DNA from: Amoebophrya sp. A120 | Lineage: Eukaryota; Protista; Dinoflagellata | Direction: 5' to 3' | DNA: 64,000 nt | Assembly: GCA_905178155.1 (NCBI GenBank) | Contig: CAJINV010000002.1 | Location: 62,001-126,000 of the forward strand | Shown here: positions 2,595-54,572 of the stretch, piece after piece | Position numbering within the stretch: position 1 is the stretch's first letter | Layout of the letters: each line of letters begins with the position of its first letter | Made by a program: the position numbers and the translations under genes | The notes under the pieces: model-generated | Seen by the model: the letters and a program-made list of their open reading frames with translations, nothing else | What the model was told of the DNA's origin: nothing | Database searches by the model: none

Positions 2595-4770
2595 CCGTTT
2601 TCGGTAAAAGTAAGCATGTCACGGAGGTTCTCCACTTCCTCCTCCTCCTCTCGGGCCTTATGCGCTGGAAATACCTCACTTGGCCTGGATATCCTGTGCA
2701 AACACGTTCTCACCCCAGAGTCAGAATGGGGATCTCGCTACACACATCCAGAACTTTTGGTGGAGGATGTCACGCACTATGACAATTTTCTCTTTTTATT
2801 ATGGTGCAGTTTAGCAAGTACAGCCGCATCACATCAGCAAAGCCATCTACTTATATTTATCCTGTTTACAGCATTACAAATTCCAAAACAGCACGTTTGG
2901 AAATGCCTCTCATAGGAATGCGCATTAGTGAGGTTCCTGCACTTAGATGCAGATGCAAATCTGCATGACAGCGGTGGGTGTTTATGTACTAGCAACTCCG
3001 GGGTGCAAACGTTTTTACTCACGATACTGGATTTGAATGACAAACTTGGTTGGAGGGGCAGGTGGATGCTGCCTGTTGCTGGTGCAACGCCCCTCTTCAA
3101 TTTGATTCATTTGAAATGCTCTACGATCAGAACTATGACCTCTGTGGTGCATGTTGCGCGAAAGCGGAGCTTGCTCGTCGTGCAGAGATCCGATTCGCGT
3201 ATCCCATGCGTAGGCGGCTGCATGACATGACAATGTTTAGATGAAGCAGTCAAAACTACGGCTGTGGTATTTGTCAACTGGTGCACCCGTATCTGTGTAG
3301 TATTACTGCCTATTTGCAAATGCAATTATGCACGTGAGAGGTTGACAACTCTCCAGACCTAGATTGATATTTCGGGTTGGTACACTTTTTTGTACGCAGT
3401 CGCGACTGCCTCCTCTGCTGCCTTCAGCCCTGCTCTTTTCCGCCCTTATCCTGTAGAAGACTATCGCGCAGCTCCGTACGGCTCTTCTACCGATTCGACT
3501 ACATAAATTATTTTACTTTTTCCAAAATCAAATCAACATCACAACTTCAACTTTCCAGTCCATGACCTGCACACCTGCAAATGCGAACCATTTTAGTTTT
3601 TTCGGTTGAGCAGGAAATCCACTCCAAAGAAGTAAAGGGACGATAATCTATTTCCACAGGATACGTTCTCGATTTCTTTGATCTGAAAATCAAAGTTTTT
3701 CATTTCCAACTCCTTTTCCGCATGTTTTTGATTGAGAACCGCCATGACAAAGAAATGCAGCTAGCGTATTCTTTCGCTTGGCATTGTCTGCGGCACACGG
3801 ATTGTAATGCTGCTTGTGGTTCCAAAATTTGTCATGCTATTTGTGCTTATAGATCAGATGCGGCTTTGGGTTTTTTTTGCATCACAAATGAGGGGGAGGG
3901 GGACTTGTGCACTCTCATGAGCTCCGATTTCGGTTTATTCGCATCTGCAGAATGCCAAGTCCGATATGCTAGTAAAAATTTTGCGCACGATAACCGCGTC
4001 CCATTGGTTATTGAACGGTCAAGATCTAAACCGAGAAAGTCGATGAAATGATTTGTCATTCTTATGCATAATAAAATCGATATAAGTTGGTGTTGAGCCC
4101 TAAGTTTCTAAGAGGCGAACGAGAAATTTTGCAAGCATACACGTAAATCCAATTTTTCATGCTGTTTGGGGCAAAGTAGGAGACTACTTTCGCATCATTT
4201 ATCAAACCCCAAGAAACAAGCTCAAGTACAACCGGCCTCATGTGGCTGCTCTGCAATACAAGCTGTTTCCGCATCGTGTTTTATGCATGACAAATTCTTT
4301 CAACTCTGGTCGATTTCGATCCTATACGCCCCCATAGTCGTCGGTGGCCACCTTTTTCGCATTGAGAGCAGCTTCCAGCTCTTCATTCGCCTCGTGCAGT
4401 CGCGAAGCGGCTTTCAGCTTGGTCTTCCGGATTATCAAGTGCAAATATGTCTGGGTCTGGAAGCAGAAAACAAATATTTGTCATGCAGTTTCTGCAATTG
4501 GAATTACGAGGAGGCCTGGAAGGCACACAGAGCATGTTGACAGACTTTGCGCAGGCTTCATCTGTCTCCATGCCTTGCCTGCATGAGCAACGCCCTAGCT
4601 TGGAGACGAAAGTGGCTATCTGCTTTTGCATCCTAAGCAACACAGATTTATTTTCCCTGGTGTTCCAGATAATTCCGCATCACACACAGGTTTCTTGCAT
4701 CCTTCCAGACCCAGACACATTTGCATTTGATACGGATTTTCCCACTCGCCTCGTCCTTGCGGACGTGGCG
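2595..4770 (-). CDS. Fragments of a multi-exon coiled-coil protein (partial model)
   Basis: Removing 4433-4732 gives KRQRHVRKDEASGKI|RKTKLKAASRLHEANEELEAALNAKK; removing 3447-3663 gives IKEIEN|GKRAGLKAAEEAVATAYKK; removing 2690-3026 gives FKS|RPSEVFPAHKAREEEEEVENLRDML. Not all junctions resolved. Confidence 0.5.
2690..3026. mobile_element. TIR introner, family B
   Basis: TATCCTGTGCAAACACGTT...AACGTTTTTACTCACGATA; perfect DR CTGGA. Confidence 0.85.
3447..3663. mobile_element. TIR introner, degenerate
   Basis: TATCCTGTAGAA...TTCCACAGGATA; removal +5 nt gives a coiled-coil reading. Confidence 0.6.
4433..4732. mobile_element. TIR introner, family A
   Basis: ~29-bp TIR; perfect DR CGGAT; removal restores frame. 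Confidence 0.92.
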
Positions 4771-7055: not shown

Positions 7056-7775
7056 AGCTGGCCCCTAGGTCATGACGCGGGGNNNNNNNNNNNNNNNNNN
7101 NNNNNNNNNNNNNNNNNNNNNNNNNNNNNNNNNNNNNNNNNNNNNNNNNNNNNNNNNNNNNNNNNNNNNNNNNNNNNNNNNNNNNNNNNNNNNNNNNNNN
7201 NNNNNNNNNNNNNNNNNNNNNNNNNNNNNNNNNNNNNNNNNNNNNNNNNNNNNNNNNNNNNNNNNNNNNNNNNNNNNNNNNNNNNNNNNNNNNNNNNNNN
7301 NNNNNNNNNNNNNNNNNNNNNNNNNNNNNNNNNNNNNNNNNNNNNNNNNNNNNNNNNNNNNNNNNNNNNNNNNNNNNNNNNNNNNNNNNNNNNNNAAAGC
7401 TGGCCCCTAGGTCATGACGCGGGGACCGAGCCCCCGCGCTGCCCTAGGGCTTTTTCCCGTGGGCCGTGTGGTTAGTTTCCGGGAAAGAAGCGCCCGCAGC
7501 AGCTGGCCCCTAGGTCATGACGCGGGGACCGAGTCCCCGCGCTGACCTAGGGCTTTTGCCCCTGGGCCGTGCGGTTAGATAGTTTCCGGGAAACAAACGC
7601 CCAAAGCTGGCCCCTAGGTCATGACGCGGGGACCGAGTCCCCGCGCTGACCTAGGGCTTTCGCCCCTGGGCCGTGCGGTTAGTTTCCGGGAAACGCCCGA
7701 AGCTGGTCCCTAGGTCATGACGCGGGGACCGAGTCCCCGCGCTGACCTAGGGCTTTTGCCCCTGGGCCGTGCGAG
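7056..7775. repeat. ~100-bp GC-rich hairpin tandem repeat spanning an assembly gap
   Basis: Units start AGCTGGCCCCTAGGTCATGACGCGGGG at 7056, 7398, 7501, 7605 and 7701; N gap at 7083-7395. Confidence 0.92.
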
Positions 7776-7902
7776 AAGCCCGCCCACTCTGGATACTTGA
7801 GCCCGCTCTGGATATTTATTCGATTCGGATCCAGGTATGTTTTCTGCTCTGGATACTCAGGCTCTCTGCCCCCTGCTCTGAATGTGGTAGCCGAGGGCGC
7901 GC

Positions 7903-8250
7903 CGGGGGTTTGTCTGGGGTGTGTCGGGGGTGTCTTCCGGGGGTGTGAGACGGGGATCCCTGGGGTGTGACGGGGGGGTGTGTCGGGGGTGTGTCTGGGG
8001 TGTGTCTGGGGTGTGTCCGGGGTGTGTTCGGGGTGTGTGTTGCAACTTGCAAATCACGATGCTACGCAGCCACTTTGCATACCCCAGAACACACCCCAAA
8101 GCTTCAGCAGTTCTTGTCGGGGGGGGTGTGTCGGGGGTCTGTCTGGGGTGTGTCCGGGGTGTGTTCGGGGTGTGGCCTGCAAATTACAAATCACGATGCT
8201 ACGGACCTACTTTCCATACCCCAGAACACACCCAAAAGCTTCAAAAGTTC
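7903..8250 (+). repeat. G-rich ~11-bp minisatellite (GGGGTGTGTCN) within a duplicated ~135-bp unit
   Basis: Many GGGG-TGTGTC runs; the tail TGCAA.TT.CAAATCACGATGCTACG...CATACCCCAGAACAC occurs twice (~8042 and ~8178). Confidence 0.88.
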
Positions 8251-21397: not shown

Positions 21398-24300
21398 TCA
21401 GATGAATAGCCAGCAGTTGCATTGTGGGAGTATGGAGGAATAACACGGAGGCGCGCTTCTGCTCTTTTCTTCGTCATCCTCTACTTCGAGCTTCACAGTA
21501 CTATCGGGACGAACCGCTGCAGATTAAAATAATCAAAAGTTCACTTTCACGACATTTATGCAGAAGAACAAATCTGCGCCATGACAAAAAGGCTCGGAGA
21601 TGAATCAAGCACGTGCTTCCTGGTCTTTCTTCGTGATATCTGTCTCCATCGCCAAACGCGGCCTTATATTTCCGCTCTTGCGCCGTTATTTGCGCGTCGT
21701 ACTGCCCTATGGATTGCAAATACATCTGGACGATCTGGTAGGTCGAGTTTGTCATGCGAGCTCTGGACGACAAGGAAGAAACCTGTATTGCATGAGCAAC
21801 AAAAGAGATTCGCCGACGCATCGCAAAGTGCGCCGGTGGAAACTTGTGACGCTGTAGCCCGCACTCCAAATCTTCGCTTCTGGGCCATACAAATGCTGAA
21901 CGACAAGCCGTAGCAAGACAAATCCAGAGCCAGAGTTTTTTTCTGTTGATATCTACGATTCTGCTTGCCACGTCTTTGGCCTCTAGTTCCAGGCGCGCTT
22001 CCTCTTTATCCTCAGTAAAAACGTCCGCTCCCACCAATTTGTCATGCTGATCTGCATCTACGGGATAGTGTAAGCGCTTGTGATGCGCATCCCCGGAAGA
22101 GGCATTTCTACTCGTCTCTCGGTGCAAATCTTGATCCTACAAAGAAGAGATCTAGCAGGAGCTTCTTCATGCGTCTGAGAGAAATAGCTTGGGATGCATT
22201 TACATTCTTCCCAAAACTTCTGCATTTGTGTTGCCAACTTCTAAACGTGAAAAAAGTCGGGGGAACAATAGCGTTTTTCCACAGGATAATCTTCGCCCTG
22301 TTTTCTCTTCTGTTGCTTGTACGACGCTATGTGCTCTTGCGCTTCGGCCATCTGCGGCCCGAGGGCTTTTTCGATCCTTCGCAGGTCGCGCTCGCGCTGC
22401 AGCTCGGCGGCAGGTATTCAGCAGACGAAACGCAGACCTTCACTGAAAAAAAGTATCGATTTGCGATGCGGGGGTTTTCGGTAACATCACAAAAAAGCTC
22501 ATCTGTTTCGCTGTTCATCAGCATGACAACTTTAGTAGTTATCGTGCCTCGTCAATCTCTACTCAATGACGCGAGCTACAAGTACAGGAGACTTTGGTCT
22601 CCACGATCGGAACTTGCATCGCGTATTGGAAGATAATGCATTCGTGTACGTCTATATTTCATACGAAGTTTCATACATTTTCATGGTGACAGCGACAGGA
22701 TCCGCAACACAAGTTTTTTTTTTCTGGCATGGATCTGCATTTTTCTTGGATAGCGCGGACAGCCCTCTGGTACACATTATGGAGTTTTCAAATGTTACGT
22801 TTGCAACTGTTAAGTACATGAATTGGTAATGCAAGAGTGGCAAAATTGAAAGGGCGGAGATTGAGCGTTTTGCATTACAGACTTGGGCTAGATTCGAATA
22901 CTATTTAGCGAGTCGCGACCCTGTCATACGAAGCAGCCTGATCAAGGTCATATAGCTACTCAGTGCAAATTTGCATGACAAATCCATGAAGCAGTTGAGA
23001 GTGTAACGTTTGAGAACCCCATACGCCTGGTCCGCCTCTTGTTGCTTCTGGTCCAGCTCGCGCTCCAGCCGCGACAGTCTCTCTTTTGCCTCCTGCTCTT
23101 TTTCACCTGCACGGATTTGTGCCTCTTTCGCGGTGGAAGCCTTCTCCTTGCAATCCCATCCTGTGCGAAAACGTCCCTGCCTGAAAATATCGTAATCGTG
23201 CTGCGCTCGAGAAGCCGCATCACAAATCTTGAACCGTATGGTAAATGTAGCGTGACACTAAATTCGAAAACAATATTAAGTTAGAAAATGGTGGTCCTCA
23301 TGTAGTGGTAGTTGGGGCTGCGCATGCAAGGTGCCTTCAGCGTGCAAATCTGCGTGAGCGACGACTTGTCTGGGTTGGGCACGTTTTATACACGGGATAT
23401 TTCCTTTGCGCGCACGATCGCACTTGTGCGGGAGTCTCGCAGCATCTTCAGCAGCGCTAGCGCTTGATGCTGCGGCGATTGGTATTGGATATCAGTCGCC
23501 GCGGCATCTGCCCGGGTGTAGTCCGCACCGAGGGTCTCCCATGCCGTCTGGTCAGGGGCGGATTTGTATCAAAAGGAAAAATCCCCCCTCCCCATATCAA
23601 AGCGGAAATCTGTGATGCAGATTTGTTGTCACAAATCAGCTTTGTCATGCTACACGGGAAAAGATGCGGACTGTAGTGCTGGGTGGCGTGGGGGAGCCTT
23701 GCATCTTCAGCATGATAGGAGGCAGCTGAGAGTGGGAAACAGCATGACAAATTTCCTGCAAACGAGACCACGACTGCGGCTCTTGGCCTTCTAGCATGAC
23801 AAGTCGATTTGTGACCTCAAATCCTGCATCACAGATTTCCATTTCGATATGGGGAGGGGGGATTTTTCCGTTTGATAATTTGTTTTCCTTCGAGTTGGAC
23901 GCGATGTTGTCAACACTGGATAAATTGCAAATAGTATCGTACAAGTACCAATTCTTGCATTGCAAATTTGCTCAGAAGGGGCATCAAACCATAAGTGTAT
24001 TTGTAATGCAGGTCGTTCTTCATGTAGTACAGATTTCTCATGCGGTTTTGGGATCAATAATCAGTGTATTTGTAATGCTGGTCGTTCTTCTTTTTGTACA
24101 GATTAATATTTACATTGCTTGACTTCTGGGTTCTGGTACGGCAAACCCCCGGCGACAGGTGACCTCGACAGGTGACCTTGACAGGTGACCTTGACAGGTG
24201 ACCTTGACAGGTGAACCGCGACAGGTGACCTAAGCCCTAAGGCTAGCGCGGCCTACGCCCCTGTCTTTTATGAAATAAACACGAAAACGAAATATTTGCG

Positions 24301-35879: not shown

Positions 35880-36854
35880 GCTCTTCTTCCGCGGACTTCG
35901 CCTTCGTGTAAGCGGCCTTCGCCAGTTCGGTGTCGAGCGATTCCACCTCGAGTTTGGCTTGGAGGTATTTGGCTTCTAACTCGGCCAGTTTGTCGTGTTT
36001 TTGCGTCCTGAGTAAAAACGTCCCCACCCCATAGTCAAGTTGGGAAATCTGCAAGACAAGAAATCAGCCGTTCTTGTGCATGACAAGTCTGGGCTCGGAA
36101 TGTAGTCGCGTTTAGCTAGTGCAGCAGCATCACAAATTTAGTACCTCATGCTGATTGTAGCATCACAAATTTCAAAGAGCACTGGAAAATGCGTCTCACT
36201 CTCATGGGGATTTACCATGCACATTACTTTACCATGCAGAGGTGCATTACAACTCTGGGGTGGGGACTTTTACCATGCAGATTTGCATGACAAGAACTCT
36301 GGGGTGGGGAAGTTTTTGATCAGGGTATTCTGCCGTTGCCGATTATCATGCTCAGTCACGACCAGGGACTTGTGCGCCGCGAGCTCCGCTTGCAACTTGA
36401 GTTTCTGTTGCTCCTTCTCTTGCAAGTCCTGCTCTTTCGCGTTCCGCACCTATCCTGAGCAAAACCGTTCCCATCCCATAGTCAAGACGGGAAATCTGCT
36501 AGACAAATCAGCCAGCTTCGATTGTTGCGCATGACAAGTTTAGCTTCGTAATGTAAAAATCCTGTTTGGCTTGTTCAGCAGCATAACAGATCTGGTCCAT
36601 TATTCTGATTAGAGCATTACAAATTCCAAAACACGACGTAGAAAATTTTGCTTGTCATGGAGCTGCTCCGCATGAGAAACATTTTGAGCGTGCAGATTTA
36701 CATGACGACTATGGGGTTAGGACGGTTTTACATGGGATATCAACAGCTTCAAGTTGTTCCGATGCTCATCGGCGGCGAAGTTGGACATATCCCGTTCTTC
36801 GAGACTCCGCGTGAAGGCATCGAGGGCGACGTCAGTTTCTGCGCGGTAAGGCAT
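35880..36854 (-). CDS. Multi-exon coiled-coil protein, 5' part; continues downstream
   Basis: MPYRAETDVALDAFTRSLEERD...LKLL|RNAKEQDLQEKEQQKLKLQAELAAHK...RQ|KHDKLAELEAKYLQAKLEVESLDTELAK after removing 36451-36739 and 36004-36327 (+5 nt). Confidence 0.7.
36004..36327. mobile_element. TIR introner, family B
   Basis: DR TTTTG/TTCTG; in-frame removal; right-end sequence internally duplicated. Confidence 0.85.
36451..36739. mobile_element. TIR introner, family B
   Basis: DR GCACC/TCAAC; in-frame removal. Confidence 0.85.
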
Positions 36855-45100: not shown

Positions 45101-47423
45101 ATATTGTCTATGCAATTTCTGTTAGTACGATACTGTTACTTTCTTTTGCAGTGCATACTGCGAAATAACTCGTCGCAGGCCGATGTTCCGAAAAAAAACG
45201 TCCTCGTGCACGAAGTCGACTTCGGAGTACAACTCCGGTATCCTCTGTAAGAACGTCCCCACGACCCCCGAGTCGAGACGGGGGGAACTCTGCCATACAA
45301 GTCCGGCAGTGTAGTTGGGAGTCACGCATGACAAGCTTCTCGCTGTACTGTAGTGCAGGTTAGAAAGGACAGCCGCATGAAGAAGCCATCTCCCTATCCT
45401 GTTTGCGGCATTACAATAAAGGCCAGAACACAATTAGAAATGCCTCTCTTGGCTTCTACGCACGCGCATTACAAGCGTTCCTGTGTTGAGTGCAGATCTG
45501 CATTACAGCTCTGGGGTGGGGACGTTTTTACACGGGATATCCGGTAGTGCTTCTTCTGCCAGCCACTTCCTGACCTTTGCTGGCTTTACCAAGCCGAGGA
45601 TCTGGGCGCCGCACGCCTCCAGCCTCTCCATTGAAATCACAGCGAAGCAGCCGAAGTTCTCGGAAAAATCAGAGATGGCGACGTCCCGCGGAAAATTTTT
45701 GCTCCCCAGTGCGGCGGCCTTCTGCGTGACGACTAGTTCTTGCGCACCGCAGGGCGGCAGCGGACAGGGAGTGTTCTTTTTGACGTAGCGCTCCGCGGCG
45801 TTTCGCATTGCAGCACGGATTTCTGGCAAAGTCTGTGCGGTTTGCATTATCACAATGAAAAATCCCCCCTCCCCATACCAAAACGCAGATCTGTGTAGCA
45901 GGATTTGGGCGGCCCACAAATCATGTTGTCATGCTAGAACAAGGTAGTCCTCGCAGCTGGCGACGTGGGAAGGCCTTGCATCTTCAGTCGATGTTGACAG
46001 GAGGCAATTGGAAGTGGGAAACAGCATGAGAAAGTGCCTGCAATCAAGGCCGCAACTACGTCTCTTGGCCTTCTAGCAACACAAGCCGATTCCGATTTGT
46101 GTACGCAAATCCAATTGCATCACAAATTTCCACCTTTCCGAGTATATGGGGAGGGGGGATTTTTCTTCACAATATCCATCGCCGCCCGCGCCTCGTCGTC
46201 ACCCGGGAAATGCCAGGAGAAGTTGTCTGCTTTATGGTCAGGAAAAATTCCCCCTCCCCTCATGCACCAGCAGGAAATTTGTCATGCTATTTCAGGCAAG
46301 AGAGCAACAGTTGTTGGCTCGCATCGTGCTGAACAAAGCACAATGCGAAAGCCCCTTTGACGTTACAGCTTGGTCGCTGGTGAAGATCTTCACGAGCAAA
46401 AACTTTGCAAGAGGGTGGCGCTGTCTTTCTTGTCGTGTTGTATCTGGGGGGGGCTTCGTGTTTCACTTTGATACGCCTGCACTTCGGGCGGTGGCAGGCG
46501 AAAACTGTCTTTCCCCGTCGCAGGATCCGGGCCGACCTTGGCCGGCTTCGCCAACCACGTGACCTCGCCCTGTCCCACGTGGCTGGCGAAACCGGCCGCG
46601 AAGAGGTACTTCTCCGCCCGGTATCCACTGCAAACATGGGTCTGTCTGGGTCTGGAAACTTGTGTTGCTGACATTTGCATTACAGACTGCCTCATGCTGT
46701 GATGCCGTACAGGCAGCCTGCCTGTACGGCATTACAGCATGAGATGAAGTTATTTCCCTCAGCTTCCTGCGGATTCCTACTTCGTATTTAGCATTACAAA
46801 CTGCCATCCAGCAGCACGATAAAAAAAGAAAAACTGGCCAAGAATCGTACTCATGCATTACAGATTCAGATCTTGATGTCCTCATTTAACTACAACTGCT
46901 CGTCCCGCATCACAAATTATCCAGAGGACCCAGACATACTCATTTATTTGCAAGGCATACCCGTCCACTTTCCACATCATAAAACACCACGCGCGAGGGT
47001 GTGTTCAGCTTGTCGACTATTTCCCATTCTCCAATATGGATTGCAAAAATGTCTGGGTCTGGAAGATGGTCAGTTTTGTCATGCAGGTTTTCCATGGCCC
47101 ATGAGGTCTGGTATGTAGGACATAGCATGACAGATTCTGCGAGACCTTTCCAATGCCTATCCTGCATGAGAAACTGCCTCTCGATTAGGTCAAAAGTGCA
47201 CAACTTTATTTGGCAATCACGCAACACAGTATTTTGCCTGATTCAGATTTAGCATGACAAGTTCCATCCTGCTCCCAGACGCAGACATTTCTACATTTGA
47301 TATCCAAGGTATTGCGACGTCGTCCCCGGTTCTTCCCGGAGGGTCCGTTCCTTCCTGAACGGGTAGGTCGCGGGAGTGACGTGGAACCCGATCCGCTCGG
47401 GCGGTCTCTCTGGCTCCTGCGTA
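39110..47423 (-). CDS. Multi-exon atypical (RIO/Bud32/ELK-like) protein kinase with long G/N/K-rich tail and possible C-terminal SURP-like domain; 5' end not resolved
   Basis: Removing 17 TIR elements (each +5 nt) and one GT-AG intron (41849-42030) gives one open frame to TAA at 39110-39112. Motifs assembled across junctions: AEKYLFAAGFASHVGQGEVTWLAKP (subdomains I/II), AVISMERLE (V), LYSEVDFVHEDVFFRNIGL (catalytic loop), LVLFDFGVGR (DFG). Includes listed ORFs 45503-45919, 43965-44306, 43024-43401, 40533-41771 and 40108-40398. Confidence 0.8.
39157..39328. mobile_element. TIR introner, degenerate
   Basis: TATCGGGAGGAACAAAAATCCC...GGGGATCACTCGTCTCTTGGATA; +5 removal leads to a terminal exon. 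Confidence 0.5.
39507..39801. mobile_element. TIR introner, family A
   Basis: DR CGTCG/CGTTC; in-frame removal. Confidence 0.85.
39871..40119. mobile_element. TIR introner, family B
   Basis: DR TTAAG/TTCAT; in-frame removal. Confidence 0.8.
40343..40630. mobile_element. TIR introner, family B
   Basis: DR GGACA/GGGCA; joins ORFs 40533-41771 and 40108-40398. Confidence 0.88.
41544..41598 (-). repeat. 18-bp coding tandem repeat (HQHGDP x3)
   Basis: TGGGTCGCCATGTTGATG repeated three times. Confidence 0.9.
42146..42424. mobile_element. TIR introner, degenerate
   Basis: TATCGCAGGAAAACAAAAAGC...GTTTTTGGTGTGGATA; in-frame removal. Confidence 0.55.
42519..42761. mobile_element. TIR introner, family A
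   Basis: DR CCGGG/CCGGA; in-frame removal. Confidence 0.9.
42855..43129. mobile_element. TIR introner, family A
   Basis: DR GTTTC/ACTTC; in-frame removal. Confidence 0.82.
43352..43606. mobile_element. TIR introner, degenerate
   Basis: TATGGGAAAGAAA...TTTCTCTGATA; DR GTTTG/GCTGG; in frame. Confidence 0.6.
43748..43985. mobile_element. TIR introner, degenerate
   Basis: AATCGCACAGAAA...TTTTTCTGCGTA; +5 removal joins SVEQ|EVEAG. Confidence 0.5.
44332..44550. mobile_element. TIR introner, family D-like
   Basis: TATGAGAGTGCACAACTCCCCCTC...GAGGGGGAGTTGTGCGCTGTAATA; DR CCTTT/CCTCA. Confidence 0.8.
44588..44867. mobile_element. TIR introner, family A
   Basis: TATGCATTGCAAATATG...CATATCTGCAATGCATA; DR TGCTG/TTCTC. 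Confidence 0.87.
44980..45157. mobile_element. TIR introner, family C
   Basis: TATCCTGTGAAAG..CAGTATCGTACT...AGTACGATACTG..TTTTGCAGTGCATA; lies between the kinase catalytic loop and DFG. Confidence 0.8.
45239..45539. mobile_element. TIR introner, family B
   Basis: Perfect DR TCCGG; joins EALP|ELYSEVDFVHED. Confidence 0.92.
45848..46174. mobile_element. TIR introner, family D
   Basis: DR TGCAT/TCCAT; homologue of 23567-23877. Confidence 0.9.
46233..46473. mobile_element. TIR introner, family D (degenerate)
   Basis: DR TGCTT/CGCCT; in-frame removal. Confidence 0.75.
46622..46959. mobile_element. TIR introner, family A
   Basis: DR CCCGG/CCCGT; joins ESGR|AEKYL. Confidence 0.87.
47035..47302. 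mobile_element. TIR introner, family A
   Basis: Perfect DR TCCAA; close homologue of 1041-1307. Confidence 0.93.
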
Positions 47424-50684: not shown

Positions 50685-53600
50685 TCAGGATGGCTGCTGC
50701 TGCAGCTGCTGCTGCCCCTGTTCTTGCCCGTGCTGGTGGACCAAACCCTGCTGGGAATTCGCGTTCCTGCTGAAAATATTACTCCCACCGGCTTCATATC
50801 CTGTGCAGAAGTATCGTAGTCGTATACCTAGATTGCACTTGCATATTTTGTCTTTTTCTGCAAAGATCAGCATTACAAATTGATTTTTTCTTCTGGGTTC
50901 AAAAAGTTTCGTGATGCAATTCCTATATCGTGGTACTCGTACTGCGATGCTTCTGCAGTGAATACGGTTGCGATGGGCTGCGACGCGGCCTGAGCCTGCC
51001 CCGCAGCGTTCACCCCGAATGCGAATGCACGGTTGAAGCTACTCCCCTGGTTATTTGCGCCGATGCCAATCGATTGACTGTTGTTGAATATTCCTGCTCC
51101 AAAAACTACATTACGCGCGGCCACGACGACCGGTGCGGGTCCGGCGTCGGCTTGCGGCATCAGTTCGTCCTCCTCGTGGACGCCGGACGAGGATGCAGCA
51201 GCCGGCCCGTTCGGTGGTTGCGACGTTGTAGTCTGCTGGACATATTTATTTTTTTTTCGCGATGAAGTTCGAACAGCACCAACCAGCAAGACGAAGCGAG
51301 CAACTGGTGGTGGTCAAAATGCGGACAAAACAAAAGCTCTCCTTCTATGTCCTGTGTGCATTACAAATTCCGCGATCAAGACATCAATAGATGCAAGTAC
51401 CTGATTTCCCCCAAAAACATTCATAATCCGACTGCCGATCGGATTCAAAGTAGTCGTCGTCGTCCCAATCGTAGTACTCGCCTTGAAAGAAGTCCCGGCT
51501 CCACTGGGATTGAAAACCGCCGGTTGCTGCAGGGGCAATTTCGCGGTTGTACCAAAACCCAAATAGCCGCCGCCCGTGGAGAGCCGGCCGGCGGACGACG
51601 TCGCGGCCGATGGCAAGGAGGAGCTTGATGCGCCGGTAGAAGTCGTGGGAATTATCTTGTTGTGCTGGCTCGTGTTCGGGAATGATCTTCCACCCAGATT
51701 GAACTGTAACGGGGGAAGCGCCTTCGTCGTGTTCTGCAGGGTAGTTGTAGAAATTGGGGCCGCGTGGTACAGCACTCTCTGGTTCTTATTCACGTCGGGG
51801 GCATGCGCATGATGTGATGTGGTCGAACCCGTTGTTCTGTTCTCGTGGGGCGGATAAACGCTCGAGACTGATTTATGCATCGCAAATAGGTCTGGGTCTG
51901 GCTCTGGAAACTTGTGATGAGGAATTCTACGTGATCGGCGAACTTCTACGCCAGCCAAGCATGACAACTTCTATACGACGCTCTCTAGTCATGCGCAGTG
52001 CGCACTACAAACTGCGTTTTTGAATGACAAATGAAGTTGCTTGGGTTCTTCTGCAGTTCGTCATGCAATACAGATTTTGTAGGAGTACCAGACAACCAGC
52101 ACAAGTTCCACTTTTCCAAACCCAGACGCAGTGGCAGTTGATATGATTTCTTCTGCTGAAAATCGTCCACGCACGCTTCTTATCAAATGCAAATATGTCT
52201 GGGTCTGGAAATTTGTCATGCCGAAATGTGCAAGAGAAAGTACGCTTCCTTATGCAGGAAAGCATGACAAGACAAGTTTGCAGGACGCTTTCTCATACGA
52301 ACTCTGCATGAGAAAATGCGTTTTTGTATGACATGAGAGGCTACCAGTTTTGTTGGTCATTCAATACAGATTTCACAGGAATGCAAGATGAGCATCACAA
52401 GTTCCAACTTTCCAGACCCAGACATATTTGGATTTGATACCTCCTCTTCCAACCGCCGGGTCGGCCGTATGGAGTTCTCAAACGTGATATTGCGAGGAAA
52501 AATCCCCCCTCCCCATATCGAAAGTAAACTTGTGATGCTGGATTTGCGTACACAAATCGACTTGTATTGCTAGAATGCCAAGAGACGCAGCTGTGGCCTG
52601 AACTGCAGGCAGTTTGTCATGCTGTTTTCCACTTCCAGTTGTCTCCTCTCTTGCTGAAAGTGCAAGGCTTTCTCACGCCAGCCAGCACTACAGTCCGCAT
52701 CTTTTGCCTTCTAGCATGACAACGTGATTTGTGGTAGCAAATCATGCTACACAAATCTCCGTTTTGGTATGGGGTGGGGGCTTTTTTCACTCTGATACGT
52801 GTGGCTCTCAGCTGTAGTTACGTGAACTGGTAATTTGCAATAGAGAGGCATCAAAATGAAAATTGGCCGAGATGAGTATCTTCTTGCGCCCCTAGCATTA
52901 CAAATTCGGCACAGAAGATTTCTGTGCGGTGTAGCCGTTCAAAAATTTGTCATGCGAGGTAGCTGCGTCGTGTAGACGGACCTTGGTGTTGACTTTGCAT
53001 GACAAATCACGCAACAGCCGCTGAGACGAAGGTCGCGTTTCAGAGTTCCATAGACCGCGTTGATTTGTTGTTCTGCTCACCCTCATTCGCAGCAAATAAA
53101 CTTTCCGCGCTTCCGGCTTCTTGGTCGGCCTGGCCGATATCAACCAGGTTACTATTTGAGCGGTTGTTTACAAACTCTTCCTCGTATTGCTTCTGTACGT
53201 GACCGGTAAGGGAGGCCAGTGCACGTGCGTTTAATCCCGCGGTCGCGGCGGGCGCAGCACGAGAAGATGAGGAGGAGCTACCGGAATCATGAGAAGTTGC
53301 CGACGAAGACGAAGAGGTCAACAGCTCGGGTTGTTGTTGTTCTTGTTGTTCTGGTCCACTTCTATTCATCCTCATCGTGGCAAACGGATTATTACCCTGC
53401 AGCAAACTCCTGCCCCTGCTAGATCCTGTTGTCCCCAACGCCGGTCGTGGTGGCTGTGGGAGAAATGGGGAAGAGGTAGATGGGTAGTTGTTGTGGTTCT
53501 CCTGCAGTCGAATACGCTTGTCCTCCCACCCACTTGACGAAGAGGAAGAAAACGAGTTGTTCTCGTAGTTATCGGCAGAGATTGGTGAAAACGCAGCGGC

Positions 53601-54040
53601 TTGGTCTCCTGCTCCAGAACCATGGGAGGTGTCCTATGCTTTGCAACAGTATCGTTTGTTCGTGCTAGTATACAAAATTGCATCACATCAAATTTTCTCA
53701 AAAGGAAAACTGGAATTCATAATTCTGACACACCTAAAAAAGGGATGTTTGTCATGCTTGATAGCAAAATTACGACGAGTGCGATACTTTATTTGCACGG
53801 GATATACCAGGAGATATTACGATGTTGGTTCTTGGCTGCGTGCCGAATTGCATCACCATTGACGTGATGCCGTGATTTAGTGCTTCCCCCGTGTTGCCCC
53901 ATCGCTCGGCTTTCTTATCGTATTTCTGCTGCAGGTGCCGGTATTCCCGCACCCGCTTATTGGACGTCTGTGCGATTTCATCCTGCTCTCGTACGATATT
54001 TTGTCCTATGCTGTGCAAAAGTGTTTTCAGCACTTGCTGC
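50685..54040 (-). CDS. Multi-exon S/T/N/G-rich low-complexity protein with scattered FG/F motifs (weakly nucleoporin-like)
   Basis: ORFs 53770-54033, 53040-53438, 51985-52170, 51314-51967, 50873-51289 and 50685-50873 join in frame after removing elements 53635-53804, 52468-53052, 52181-52439, 51874-52143, 50797-50964 (+5 nt) and a putative GT-AG intron 51236-51400. Confidence 0.65.
50797..50964. mobile_element. TIR introner, family C
   Basis: TATCCTGTGCAGAAGTATCG...CGATGCTTCTGCAGTGAATA; in-frame removal. Confidence 0.78.
51874..52143. mobile_element. TIR introner, family A
   Basis: Perfect DR TGATT. Confidence 0.9.
52181..52439. mobile_element. TIR introner, family A
   Basis: Near-perfect ~30-bp TIR; DR CTTCT/CCTCC. 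Confidence 0.9.
52468..53052. mobile_element. TIR introner, family E, outer element of a nested pair
   Basis: TATGGAGTTCTCAAACG...CGTTTCAGAGTTCCATA; DR GGCCG/GACCG; in-frame removal. Confidence 0.85.
52488..52797. mobile_element. TIR element, family D, nested inside 52468-53052
   Basis: Reverse-orientation homologue of 23567-23877; DR CGTGA/CGTGT; splits the outer element's left TIR. Confidence 0.88.
53635..53804. mobile_element. TIR introner, family C
   Basis: TATGCTTTGCAACAGTATCG...CGATACTTTATTTGCACGGGATA; in-frame removal. Confidence 0.75.
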
Positions 54041-54194
54041 TAGAACTGCGATTTTCGTTGAAGAAGCTGTAGCAGGAGCGGTACTTCTCATGTAAGCGTC
54101 ATGTTCTTACGTTGTCCAGAGCCAGACCGCCTCTTGCTGTATTGCAATATTTTTTGCATGAAATCGTGACCACGCAGTTCATGCCTGTGCGATA

Positions 54195-54572
54195 GATACT
54201 TTTACGCCGGCTATCTTCCTCTTCCGCCCTCTCGCGTTCCTGCCGACGCTCCAGCTCTTGCCGGCGGTGGGTAGCCACCTCCCGGGCCCAGACGTCCCTT
54301 TTGATTTCCTCTTGGAGCGCCAAATCGGCGGCCTCCGCGCTTCTCTGCAGGTACGCGGATTGTCGCATAGCGGCCGCGTCGCGGACATTGCGTGCACGCC
54401 GCTGCTCCGTTTCGCACTGCACCTGCAGCGTTGCCTCGTAGAGGCGTGGATCTTTTCTCGTATACCCTTCCACTCCGAGCCGGGGCACGTACACGGGCCC
54501 AAGACCCATGCTGCGCGCGCGGCCCGGTGCTGGGGGAGCTGGGTCGTCAGGGGGATCGGATTCAGAGGACAT
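54195..54572 (-). CDS. Charged helical protein exon, possibly the 5' exon of the 50685-54040 gene
   Basis: ORF MSSESDPPDD...RRQELERRQERERAEEEDSRRK has protein-like composition; I could not resolve its junction to the next exon. Confidence 0.45.

What the first reader, a model, noticed from the sequence alone, without database searches (positions are those of the whole stretch)
52468..53052. Nested introner: one element inserted into the terminal repeat of another
Seen: a family E element (52468-53052, DR GGCCG/GACCG) is interrupted 20 bp from its left end by a complete family D element (52488-52797, DR CGTGA/CGTGT). After the insert the E-type TIR resumes (CGTGTGGCTCTCAGCTG, resembling CGTTACACTCTCAACTG at the end of 22778-23023). 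Removing inner + 5 leaves a normal 270-bp E element, and removing everything + 5 joins STRS|TRRLEEE in frame. Inference: either ordered two-step (twintron-like) removal, or only the outer ~20 nt of the TIR are needed. It also dates this D insertion after the E insertion.
Basis: partly seen in the sequence, partly recalled or inferred. Interest (0 to 1): 0.8.

Follow-up and report, generated by a model that had tools for sequence, protein, structure and literature searches.

The report
Mobile intron spliced from another intron
A small transposon-derived intron sits inside the end of an older one in a gene of what is likely the marine parasite Amoebophrya, and contigs from likely RNA runs show both the fully spliced message and a minor form missing only the inner intron, so the cell likely removes the inner one first, which gives a handle on this organism's unexplained non-standard splicing.

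Summary
The nest is real. A 310-bp D element (52488-52797) sits 20 bp inside a 270-bp E element (52468-53052), in a minus-strand gene.

Likely-RNA contigs join across the whole nest (52462>53053) in 4 of 4 runs, giving the predicted frame. A minor contig lacking only the inner element plus 5 nt (52481>52797) appears in 2 of 3 runs in the narrow lay; a fourth run fits it but does not prove it. All four runs come from one study. The DNA-like run shows neither joint.

The minor form keeps the derived repeat copy CGTGT, in the register of the gene's other introners. This favours RNA splicing over an empty allele.

Inner-first removal therefore likely happens, but an obligatory order is not shown. 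The outer end stem is predicted with the insert in place, and spliced neighbours have weaker stems.

A second, sequence-only nest lies at 2659-3382. Nested introners are reported in Micromonas, and unchecked scan notes report larger nests elsewhere in this genome. My searches found no report of such an intermediate for Amoebophrya-type introns.

The parts
52468..53052 (-). Outer E-family introner (TAT..ATA, 270 bp without the insert)
52463..53052 (-). Whole composite intron as removed in likely-RNA contigs (590 nt = element plus the 5-nt repeat copy on the transcript's 3' side)
   Evidence: joint 52462>53053, depth 132 / 58.1 / 80 / 31.3 in X1, X2, X3, X4
52488..52797 (-). Inner D-family introner, 310 bp, inserted at positions 16-20 of the outer arm
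52483..52797 (-). Inner intron as removed in the minor likely-RNA form (315 nt; six equivalent registers)
   Evidence: joint 52481>52797, depth 5.4 (X1) and 7.1 (X2)
52483..52487 (+). Left repeat copy of the inner element, CGTGA (ancestral-type letter A; removed with the inner intron)
52798..52802 (+). Right repeat copy of the inner element, CGTGT (kept in the intermediate)
52463..52467 (+). Left repeat copy of the outer element, GGCCG (removed)
53053..53057 (+). Right repeat copy of the outer element, GACCG (kept in the exon)
52440..52462 (-). 23-nt micro-exon downstream of the nest in the transcript
   Evidence: joints
53053..53629 (-). Exon upstream of the nest in the transcript
   Evidence: contig pieces
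50685..54572 (-). Host gene: 676-codon frame over 8 exons and 7 introns (six TAT/TAG-type introner introns counting the nest as one, one GT-AG intron); low-complexity protein; no Pfam family at cut-off in the 3 exons scanned
2659..3382 (-). Second nest, outer element (382 bp without the insert); sequence only, older and more decayed
2690..3026 (.). Second nest, inner element (337 bp, repeats CTGGA/CTGGA), 31 bp from the outer left end

Best explanation
A D-family introner lies inside the terminal repeat of an E-family introner, and the cell likely splices the inner one out of the pre-mRNA first, which rebuilds a normal E intron that is then likely removed more slowly to give the in-frame message. 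Shown: the nest in DNA sequence, the fully joined form, and the form lacking only inner+5 nt. Both cuts follow the same rule as the gene's other introners: the intron starts at the TAT in transcript direction and ends 5 nt past the ATA. Inferred: the D element arrived by DNA transposition with a 5-bp target duplication; its own ends are enough for removal even though its flanks are intron, not exon; most message passes through the inner-less form because the inner cut is faster. The order is likely set by speed rather than strictly required, because the outer TA..A-run core (positions 1-15) and its end stem stay intact outside the insert.
For: Whole-nest joint in 4 of 4 likely-RNA runs. Inner-only joint in X1 and X2 with 41-42 letters on the short side and no mismatches; not in X3 or in the DNA-like X5, with all 3 joints of that lay listed. 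In X4 a 244-nt contig lies on 52797-53035 with 5 further letters not shown, which fits but does not prove it. The X2 contig (334 nt) starts with 6 letters that do not continue into the neighbouring intron, and 6+42+286 is the length expected if that neighbour is already spliced; the 6 letters themselves were not displayed. All 7 introner joints of the gene fit the drop-left rule, and 6 of 7 exclude the other copy. The intermediate keeps T at arm position 20, whereas 7 of 7 other E-type arms in the window, the element's own right arm included, have A (one false match, 31931, left out), so it is not the ancestral empty site. In X1 and X4 the four low-copy introns of this gene are joined across, and the bin depths equal the exon share alone, so the rebuilt E intron is the only one of these seen retained. 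Folding: 18.9 expected end pairs with the insert, 20.6 without; the outer 20-nt duplex (-17 kcal/mol) is stronger than that of three spliced neighbours (-5.0, -8.3, -10.9).
Against: Only contigs were informative: they drop rare forms and their depths are crude, so the step 'pre-mRNA with the insert is rarer than the intermediate' rests on an absence. RNA status is the tool's guess (supported by precise skips, one of them a GT-AG intron). X1-X3 are one sample and X1-X4 one study. X3 lacks the intermediate. No RNA contig shows the inner element at this locus, so the RNA cultures are not proven to carry it. Removing the insert nearly doubles the longer arm duplex (45 nt: -24.5 to -38.2 kcal/mol), and the insert splits the E-family-conserved motif at arm positions 13-21; both fit a real dependence on order.
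Confidence: 0.55

Rival explanations
1. Obligatory twintron: the insert breaks a part of the outer arm that splicing needs (the extended stem or the conserved motif at positions 13-21, 25 nt from the 3' cut), so the outer intron cannot be removed until the inner one is gone.
For: The intermediate exists and is the only retained form seen among the gene's low-copy introns. The extended duplex is much stronger after inner removal. The insertion site lies in a motif that is near-constant in E arms. The inner element has kept working splice ends although its flanks are non-coding.
Against: The end stem is predicted with or without the insert. Spliced neighbours 53635, 54007 and 51874 have weaker ends. 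Published inverted-repeat motifs are 8-20 nt (PMC7789003), which fits inside the 20 nt left intact. No 3'-specific branch-point-like motif was found (11 of 37 arms at each end).
Confidence: 0.2
2. Mainly one-step removal: the whole 590 nt is cut at the outer ends, and the inner-less form is a side product or a slowly cleared retained-intron RNA (it carries a stop soon after the junction).
For: The outer ends are intact and predicted to pair. The retained form has in-frame stops. The inner element is completed only about 20 nt before the outer one during transcription, so it has little head start.
Against: It needs the interrupted E intron to be spliced as well as or better than the rebuilt one. 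No contig with the inner element retained at this locus was seen in X1-X4, although absence in contigs is weak evidence.
Confidence: 0.15
3. The minor form is an ordinary retained E intron transcribed from DNA that lacks the D element, either an empty allele in the RNA cultures or a precise DNA loss.
For: RNA-like and DNA-like runs come from different samples and studies. No RNA contig spans an inner/outer junction. Part of the inner element is covered at about 4 times single-copy depth in X5, which suggests near-identical copies and a family active fairly recently.
Against: The form keeps the derived T copy in the splicing register. The two repeat copies differ and the inner arms match only 21 of 30, which argues against a culture-age insertion. 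The listed exon and retained-intron pieces of this locus match the window with no other letter. X5 carries the right inner/outer junction at single-copy depth (43.7) and shows no such joint.
Confidence: 0.07
4. Misassembly of repeats.
For: The left junction (52425-52500) is not shown covered in X5, which is a hole rather than a conflict. The X5 contig reaches only 29 nt into the inner element (the tool's bridging rule is 31). X5 may be the sample from which the window was assembled.
Against: RNA-like contigs independently link exon, outer left end and outer body. A 4015-nt DNA-like contig links the inner right end to the outer body. The target duplication is in place on both sides.
Confidence: 0.03

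Closest known systems
Amoebophrya sp. A120 introner elements / non-canonical introns (Farhat et al. 2021, PMC7789003; abstract, 12 of 17 passages and 3 supplement legends seen)
   Same: TAT start, A-run about 11-13 nt in, terminal inverted repeats, short direct repeats over the boundaries, about 240-nt size, removal from RNA without GT-AG.
   Different: 'nested' occurs 0 times in the main text and in the supplement text held (figures not visible). No inner-first intermediate appears in what I read.
Nested or merged introner elements of Micromonas CCMP1545 (Verhelst et al. 2013, PMC3879977; 2 passages seen, supplementary figures S16-S17 not seen)
   Same: One introner inserted inside another.
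   Different: Those are spliceosomal introners (recalled: canonical ends), and the passage uses nesting to argue about when elements move, with no splicing intermediate described. Here both levels are non-canonical and the intermediate is seen.
Fungal stwintrons (PMC5587772, PMC6616335, PMC8469720, PMC12403724; search listing and abstract starts only)
   Same: Nuclear intron within intron, inner removed first, outer rebuilt by the first cut.
   Different: There the inner U2 intron splits the donor, branch point or acceptor, so the order is forced. Here neither intron has GT-AG ends, the terminal core is not split, and the needed elements are unknown.
Organellar twintrons and 'zombie' twintrons (Zumkeller et al. 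2020, PMC7049729; 12 of 16 passages seen)
   Same: A mobile intron invading another; the same question of whether outer splicing depends on prior inner splicing.
   Different: Those are group II/I ribozyme introns. This case is not a zombie twintron, since the inner intron is spliced.
Euglenid nonconventional introns (PMC11282704 passages; PMC6221363 abstract)
   Same: Transposon-like ends, end-pairing stems, unknown removal mechanism, splicing order studied through intermediates.
   Different: Different lineage and end motifs; I saw no nested case in the passages read.

Membership tests
Amoebophrya A120-type introner element | Inverted repeat of 8-20 nt or more at the two ends, starting with TAT and with an A-run | tested here: met
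   Both elements; in the E family the A-run is at 13-15 rather than 11-13
Amoebophrya A120-type introner element | 3-5 nt direct repeat at the boundaries | tested here: met
   5-nt repeats, 4 of 5 identical at both levels
Amoebophrya A120-type introner element | Removed from RNA without GT-AG ends | tested here: met
   Joints in likely-RNA contigs
Amoebophrya A120-type introner element | Repeated family | tested here: met
   D relatives at 23567 and 45848; E relatives at 22778 and 19254; other copies in X5
Amoebophrya A120-type introner element | Host is Amoebrophrya-type dinoflagellate strain A120 | not tested
   Inferred only from the element signature; no taxonomic search was run and no whole genome is held
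Twintron (broad sense) | An intron inside an intron, both removed from RNA | tested here: met
   Inner-only and whole-nest joints
Twintron (strict sense) | Inner splicing precedes outer splicing | tested here: inconclusive
   The inner-less form is seen in 2 of 3 runs; the precursor-product relation is not shown
Twintron (strict sense) | Inner removal is required for outer removal | not testable with these tools
   Folding gives no need for it at the terminal stem; needs excised-intron reads or natural dead-inner nests
Stwintron | Both introns are canonical U2 introns and the inner splits the donor, branch point or acceptor | tested here: not met
   Ends are TA.. and not AG; terminal core intact; no 3'-specific branch-like motif
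Zombie twintron | The inner intron is no longer spliced | tested here: not met
   Inner-only joint in X1 and X2

The most novel reading that the evidence does not exclude
An obligatory twintron built from two non-canonical, transposon-derived nuclear introns. The inner element breaks a part of the outer arm that the unknown Amoebophrya splicing machinery must read, so natural nests across the genome would map that part base by base, like a linker-scanning experiment done by evolution.
Probability: 0.22. Interest if true: 0.72.

Novelty: new variant of a known kind. Interest (0 to 1): 0.55.

Why it matters
How this lineage removes tens of thousands of introns without GT-AG ends, with no U1 snRNA detected, is an open question (PMC7789003). 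This locus gives three constraints. First, an introner is cut out precisely when both its flanks are intron sequence, so coding-exon context is not needed and the signal likely travels with the element. Second, the cut register is the same at both levels and is set by the element ends, not by repeat identity. Third, a 315-nt insert 25 nt from the 3' cut does not stop correct maturation. With 2 nests among about 72 elements in one window, the genome likely holds many more, and they can be sorted by insert position and by whether the inner ends are intact. That would test, with existing raw RNA reads, how much of the arm splicing needs.

Tried and rejected
No whole genome is held, so nests could not be counted genome-wide; only the window was scanned.

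No RNA holder is listed on record. Raw-read run X9 laid 1 read of 3,295,382 and says nothing.

X5 shows no cover at 52425-52467; this is a hole and proves nothing either way.

Branch-point idea: the subterminal motif GCATNACA looked like a branch site that the insert would push away from the 3' cut. It occurs equally at both arms in 37 minus-strand elements (11 and 11 exact; 21 and 16 with one mismatch) and several times inside elements, so I rejected it as a 3'-specific signal. It is more likely a transposition motif (inference). The 37 were 35 of 70 elements called minus by a noisy reading-frame test plus 2 RNA-verified ones.

Host protein: no Pfam family at cut-off for 3 of 8 exons scanned; one weak hit, E 0.041, below its cut-off.

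Six lower-scoring nest candidates (28.3-33.9) were not accepted.

In the second nest, the left 26 nt and the 60 nt after the insert do not beat shuffles (23 and 14 of 200), while the right arm does (0 of 200). That nest rests on the arm alignment and the reading frame.

Roy et al. 2023 (Curr Biol, Polarella introners) is not held and may mention nests. Passages of PMC12768974, PMC12130899, PMC9860276, PMC3935182 and PMC12501133 gave no nested-introner splicing case.

Full report
Observation. The window is dense with short elements that begin with TAT, end with ATA and have inverted arms and 5-bp flanking repeats. About 73 were called, covering about 30% of the window. At the finding, an outer element at 52468-53052 (flanks GGCCG/GACCG) holds an inner element at 52488-52797 (flanks CGTGA/CGTGT) 20 bp from its left end. 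With inner+5 removed, the 270-bp remainder aligns end to end with E element 22778-23023. The 50 nt after the insert continue the E arm better than 2000 of 2000 shuffles. The inner element is a D relative of 23567-23877 and 45848-46174. A scan that asked, for each of 70 elements, whether another element encloses it ranked this nest first (40.8) and a second nest next (38.6); six others scored 33.9 or less.

Host gene. Contig pieces define 8 exons. Joined, they give a 676-codon minus-strand frame, 54572 to 50685. The minus strand is supported by the frame and by one GT-AG intron in that direction (51233-51400); contigs do not show strand. In transcript direction the insert lies 25 nt before the outer 3' cut. 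The exon after the nest is 23 nt long.

RNA evidence. Eleven runs were listed and six were laid. X1-X4 are guessed to be RNA and behave so, skipping the gene's introns precisely. X5 runs unbroken through introns and behaves as DNA. X9 gave one read. The whole nest plus 5 nt is skipped (52462>53053) in X1, X2, X3 and X4 at depths 132, 58.1, 80 and 31.3, and not in X5. In the narrow lay at 98% likeness only three joints were found, and all were listed. One is 52481>52797 (315 nt) in X1 (depth 5.4, 41 letters on the short side) and X2 (7.1, 42 letters), with none in X3 or X5. In X4 a contig lies on 52797-53035 with five further letters not shown; in that lay 108 of 123 joints were not displayed. 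As crude ratios the minor form is 4%, 11% and 9% of the two forms in X1, X2 and X4; contig depth is a poor measure. X1-X3 are one sample and X1-X4 one study.

Is the minor form spliced RNA? Three points say yes. (1) All 7 introner joints of the gene, the inner one included, fit one rule: start at the element's first base in transcript direction and end 5 nt past its last. Six of the seven exclude the opposite choice. (2) The form keeps T at arm position 20, while 7 of 7 other E-type arms in the window carry A (one false match left out), as does one further copy seen as a loose end in X5. A is therefore likely ancestral, and an empty allele should show A. (3) The X2 contig begins with six letters that do not continue into the neighbouring intron, and its length (6+42+286 = 334) is what is expected if that neighbour is already removed; the six letters were not displayed. 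Against: no RNA contig shows the inner element at this locus, and the DNA-like and RNA-like runs are from different samples.

DNA evidence. A 4015-nt X5 contig at single-copy depth (43.7) runs from 29 nt inside the inner element through the outer body into the exons. The left junction is not shown covered. X5 may be the source of the assembly, so it is not independent, but the RNA-like contigs independently link exon, outer left end and outer body. Misassembly is unlikely.

Is the order forced? Not shown. Folding predicts the outer terminal stem with the insert in place (18.9 expected pairs, against 20.6 without), with the inner element forming its own hairpin. The outer 20-nt duplex (-17 kcal/mol) is stronger than those of three neighbours that are spliced (-5.0, -8.3, -10.9). 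The conserved core of all arms (TA, then an A-run; positions 1-15) lies outside the insert, and the published inverted-repeat motif is 8-20 nt. On the other side, removal of the insert strengthens the 45-nt duplex from -24.5 to -38.2 kcal/mol, and the insert splits an E-conserved motif at positions 13-21. In X1 and X4 the four low-copy introns of this gene show bin depths equal to the exon share alone, so the rebuilt E intron is the only one of these seen retained. A kinetic argument (inference): if the inner-less form outnumbers the form holding both, the inner cut is faster than the outer. Then, unless the interrupted outer intron is spliced faster than the rebuilt one, most message passes through the intermediate. 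This rests on an absence in contigs and bounds the ratio only weakly, perhaps two-fold. A branch-point idea was tested and dropped.

Second nest. Outer 2659-3382 holds inner 2690-3026 (CTGGA/CTGGA) 31 bp from its left end. Removing the whole nest and the next element opens a minus-strand frame with 0 stops; removing only the inner element leaves 3. Its left arm is decayed and no reads were laid on it. Both nests lie within 31 nt of the same end; the chance is about 0.04 for any end and 0.01 for the same end, computed after the fact on two cases.

Comparison. The elements fit the description of Amoebophrya A120 introners (PMC7789003); the organism was not tested directly. Nested introners are reported in Micromonas (PMC3879977), and twintrons and stwintrons are well known. 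This case works like a twintron and meets the broad definition. It fails the stwintron test (no canonical ends) and the zombie test (the inner intron is spliced); strict membership is open. Seven literature searches and the passages read showed no nested or inner-first case for Amoebophrya-type introns. Roy et al. 2023 was not available, and supplementary figures of PMC7789003 and PMC3879977 could not be seen; these may bear on novelty. Unchecked scan notes describe LINEs and large transposons nested in introners elsewhere in this genome with the whole nest likely spliced. They are leads that one-step removal can occur; I did not test them. A word search for an inner-first intermediate in scan notes found none.

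Verdict. A real, RNA-supported intron-in-intron of non-canonical introners with a visible inner-first form; a new variant of a known kind. Interest 0.55; 0.72 if the order proves obligatory (probability about 0.22).

Noticed in passing
window 2659-3382: Second introner-in-introner nest (inner 2690-3026, perfect CTGGA repeats, 31 bp from the outer end); whole removal opens a coiled-coil-like minus-strand frame.
   Followed up: partly
window 50792-54213: All seven introner joints in this gene start at the element's first base and end 5 nt past its last, even where the two repeat copies match in only 1 or 2 of 5 letters (50797, 53635), so repeat identity is not needed for the cut.
   Followed up: yes
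37 minus-strand elements across the window: Possible end asymmetry: TA is invariant at the transcript 5' end (37 of 37) while the third base varies; at the 3' end the third base is invariant (37 of 37) and the first varies. Fisher p 0.11 and 0.054; the profile used to pick elements may bias this.
   Followed up: partly
window-wide: Many elements sit very close together: 22 of 70 gaps between neighbours are under 100 bp (smallest 25), giving micro-exons such as 23 and 32 nt. Both nests are also near element ends; new insertions may favour element ends.
   Followed up: partly
window-wide: The motif GCATNACA / TGTNATGC recurs about 33-50 nt inside both arms and several times within elements of different families; a candidate transposase-binding repeat.
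   Followed up: partly
window 52530-52641: A 113-nt part of the inner element is covered by one X5 contig at depth 182, about 4 times single copy, which suggests near-identical D copies elsewhere.
   Followed up: no
window 7396-7789 and 7881-8187: Four ~100-bp direct repeats and a G-rich 11-bp tandem array next to an assembly gap at 7083-7395.
   Followed up: no
window 24140-24240: Tandem 14-bp units containing GACAGGTGAC followed by an A-rich stretch, apparently between genes.
   Followed up: no
window 36004-36327: The right arm of this element appears doubled (two TCTGGGGTGGGGA segments about 50 bp apart).
   Followed up: no
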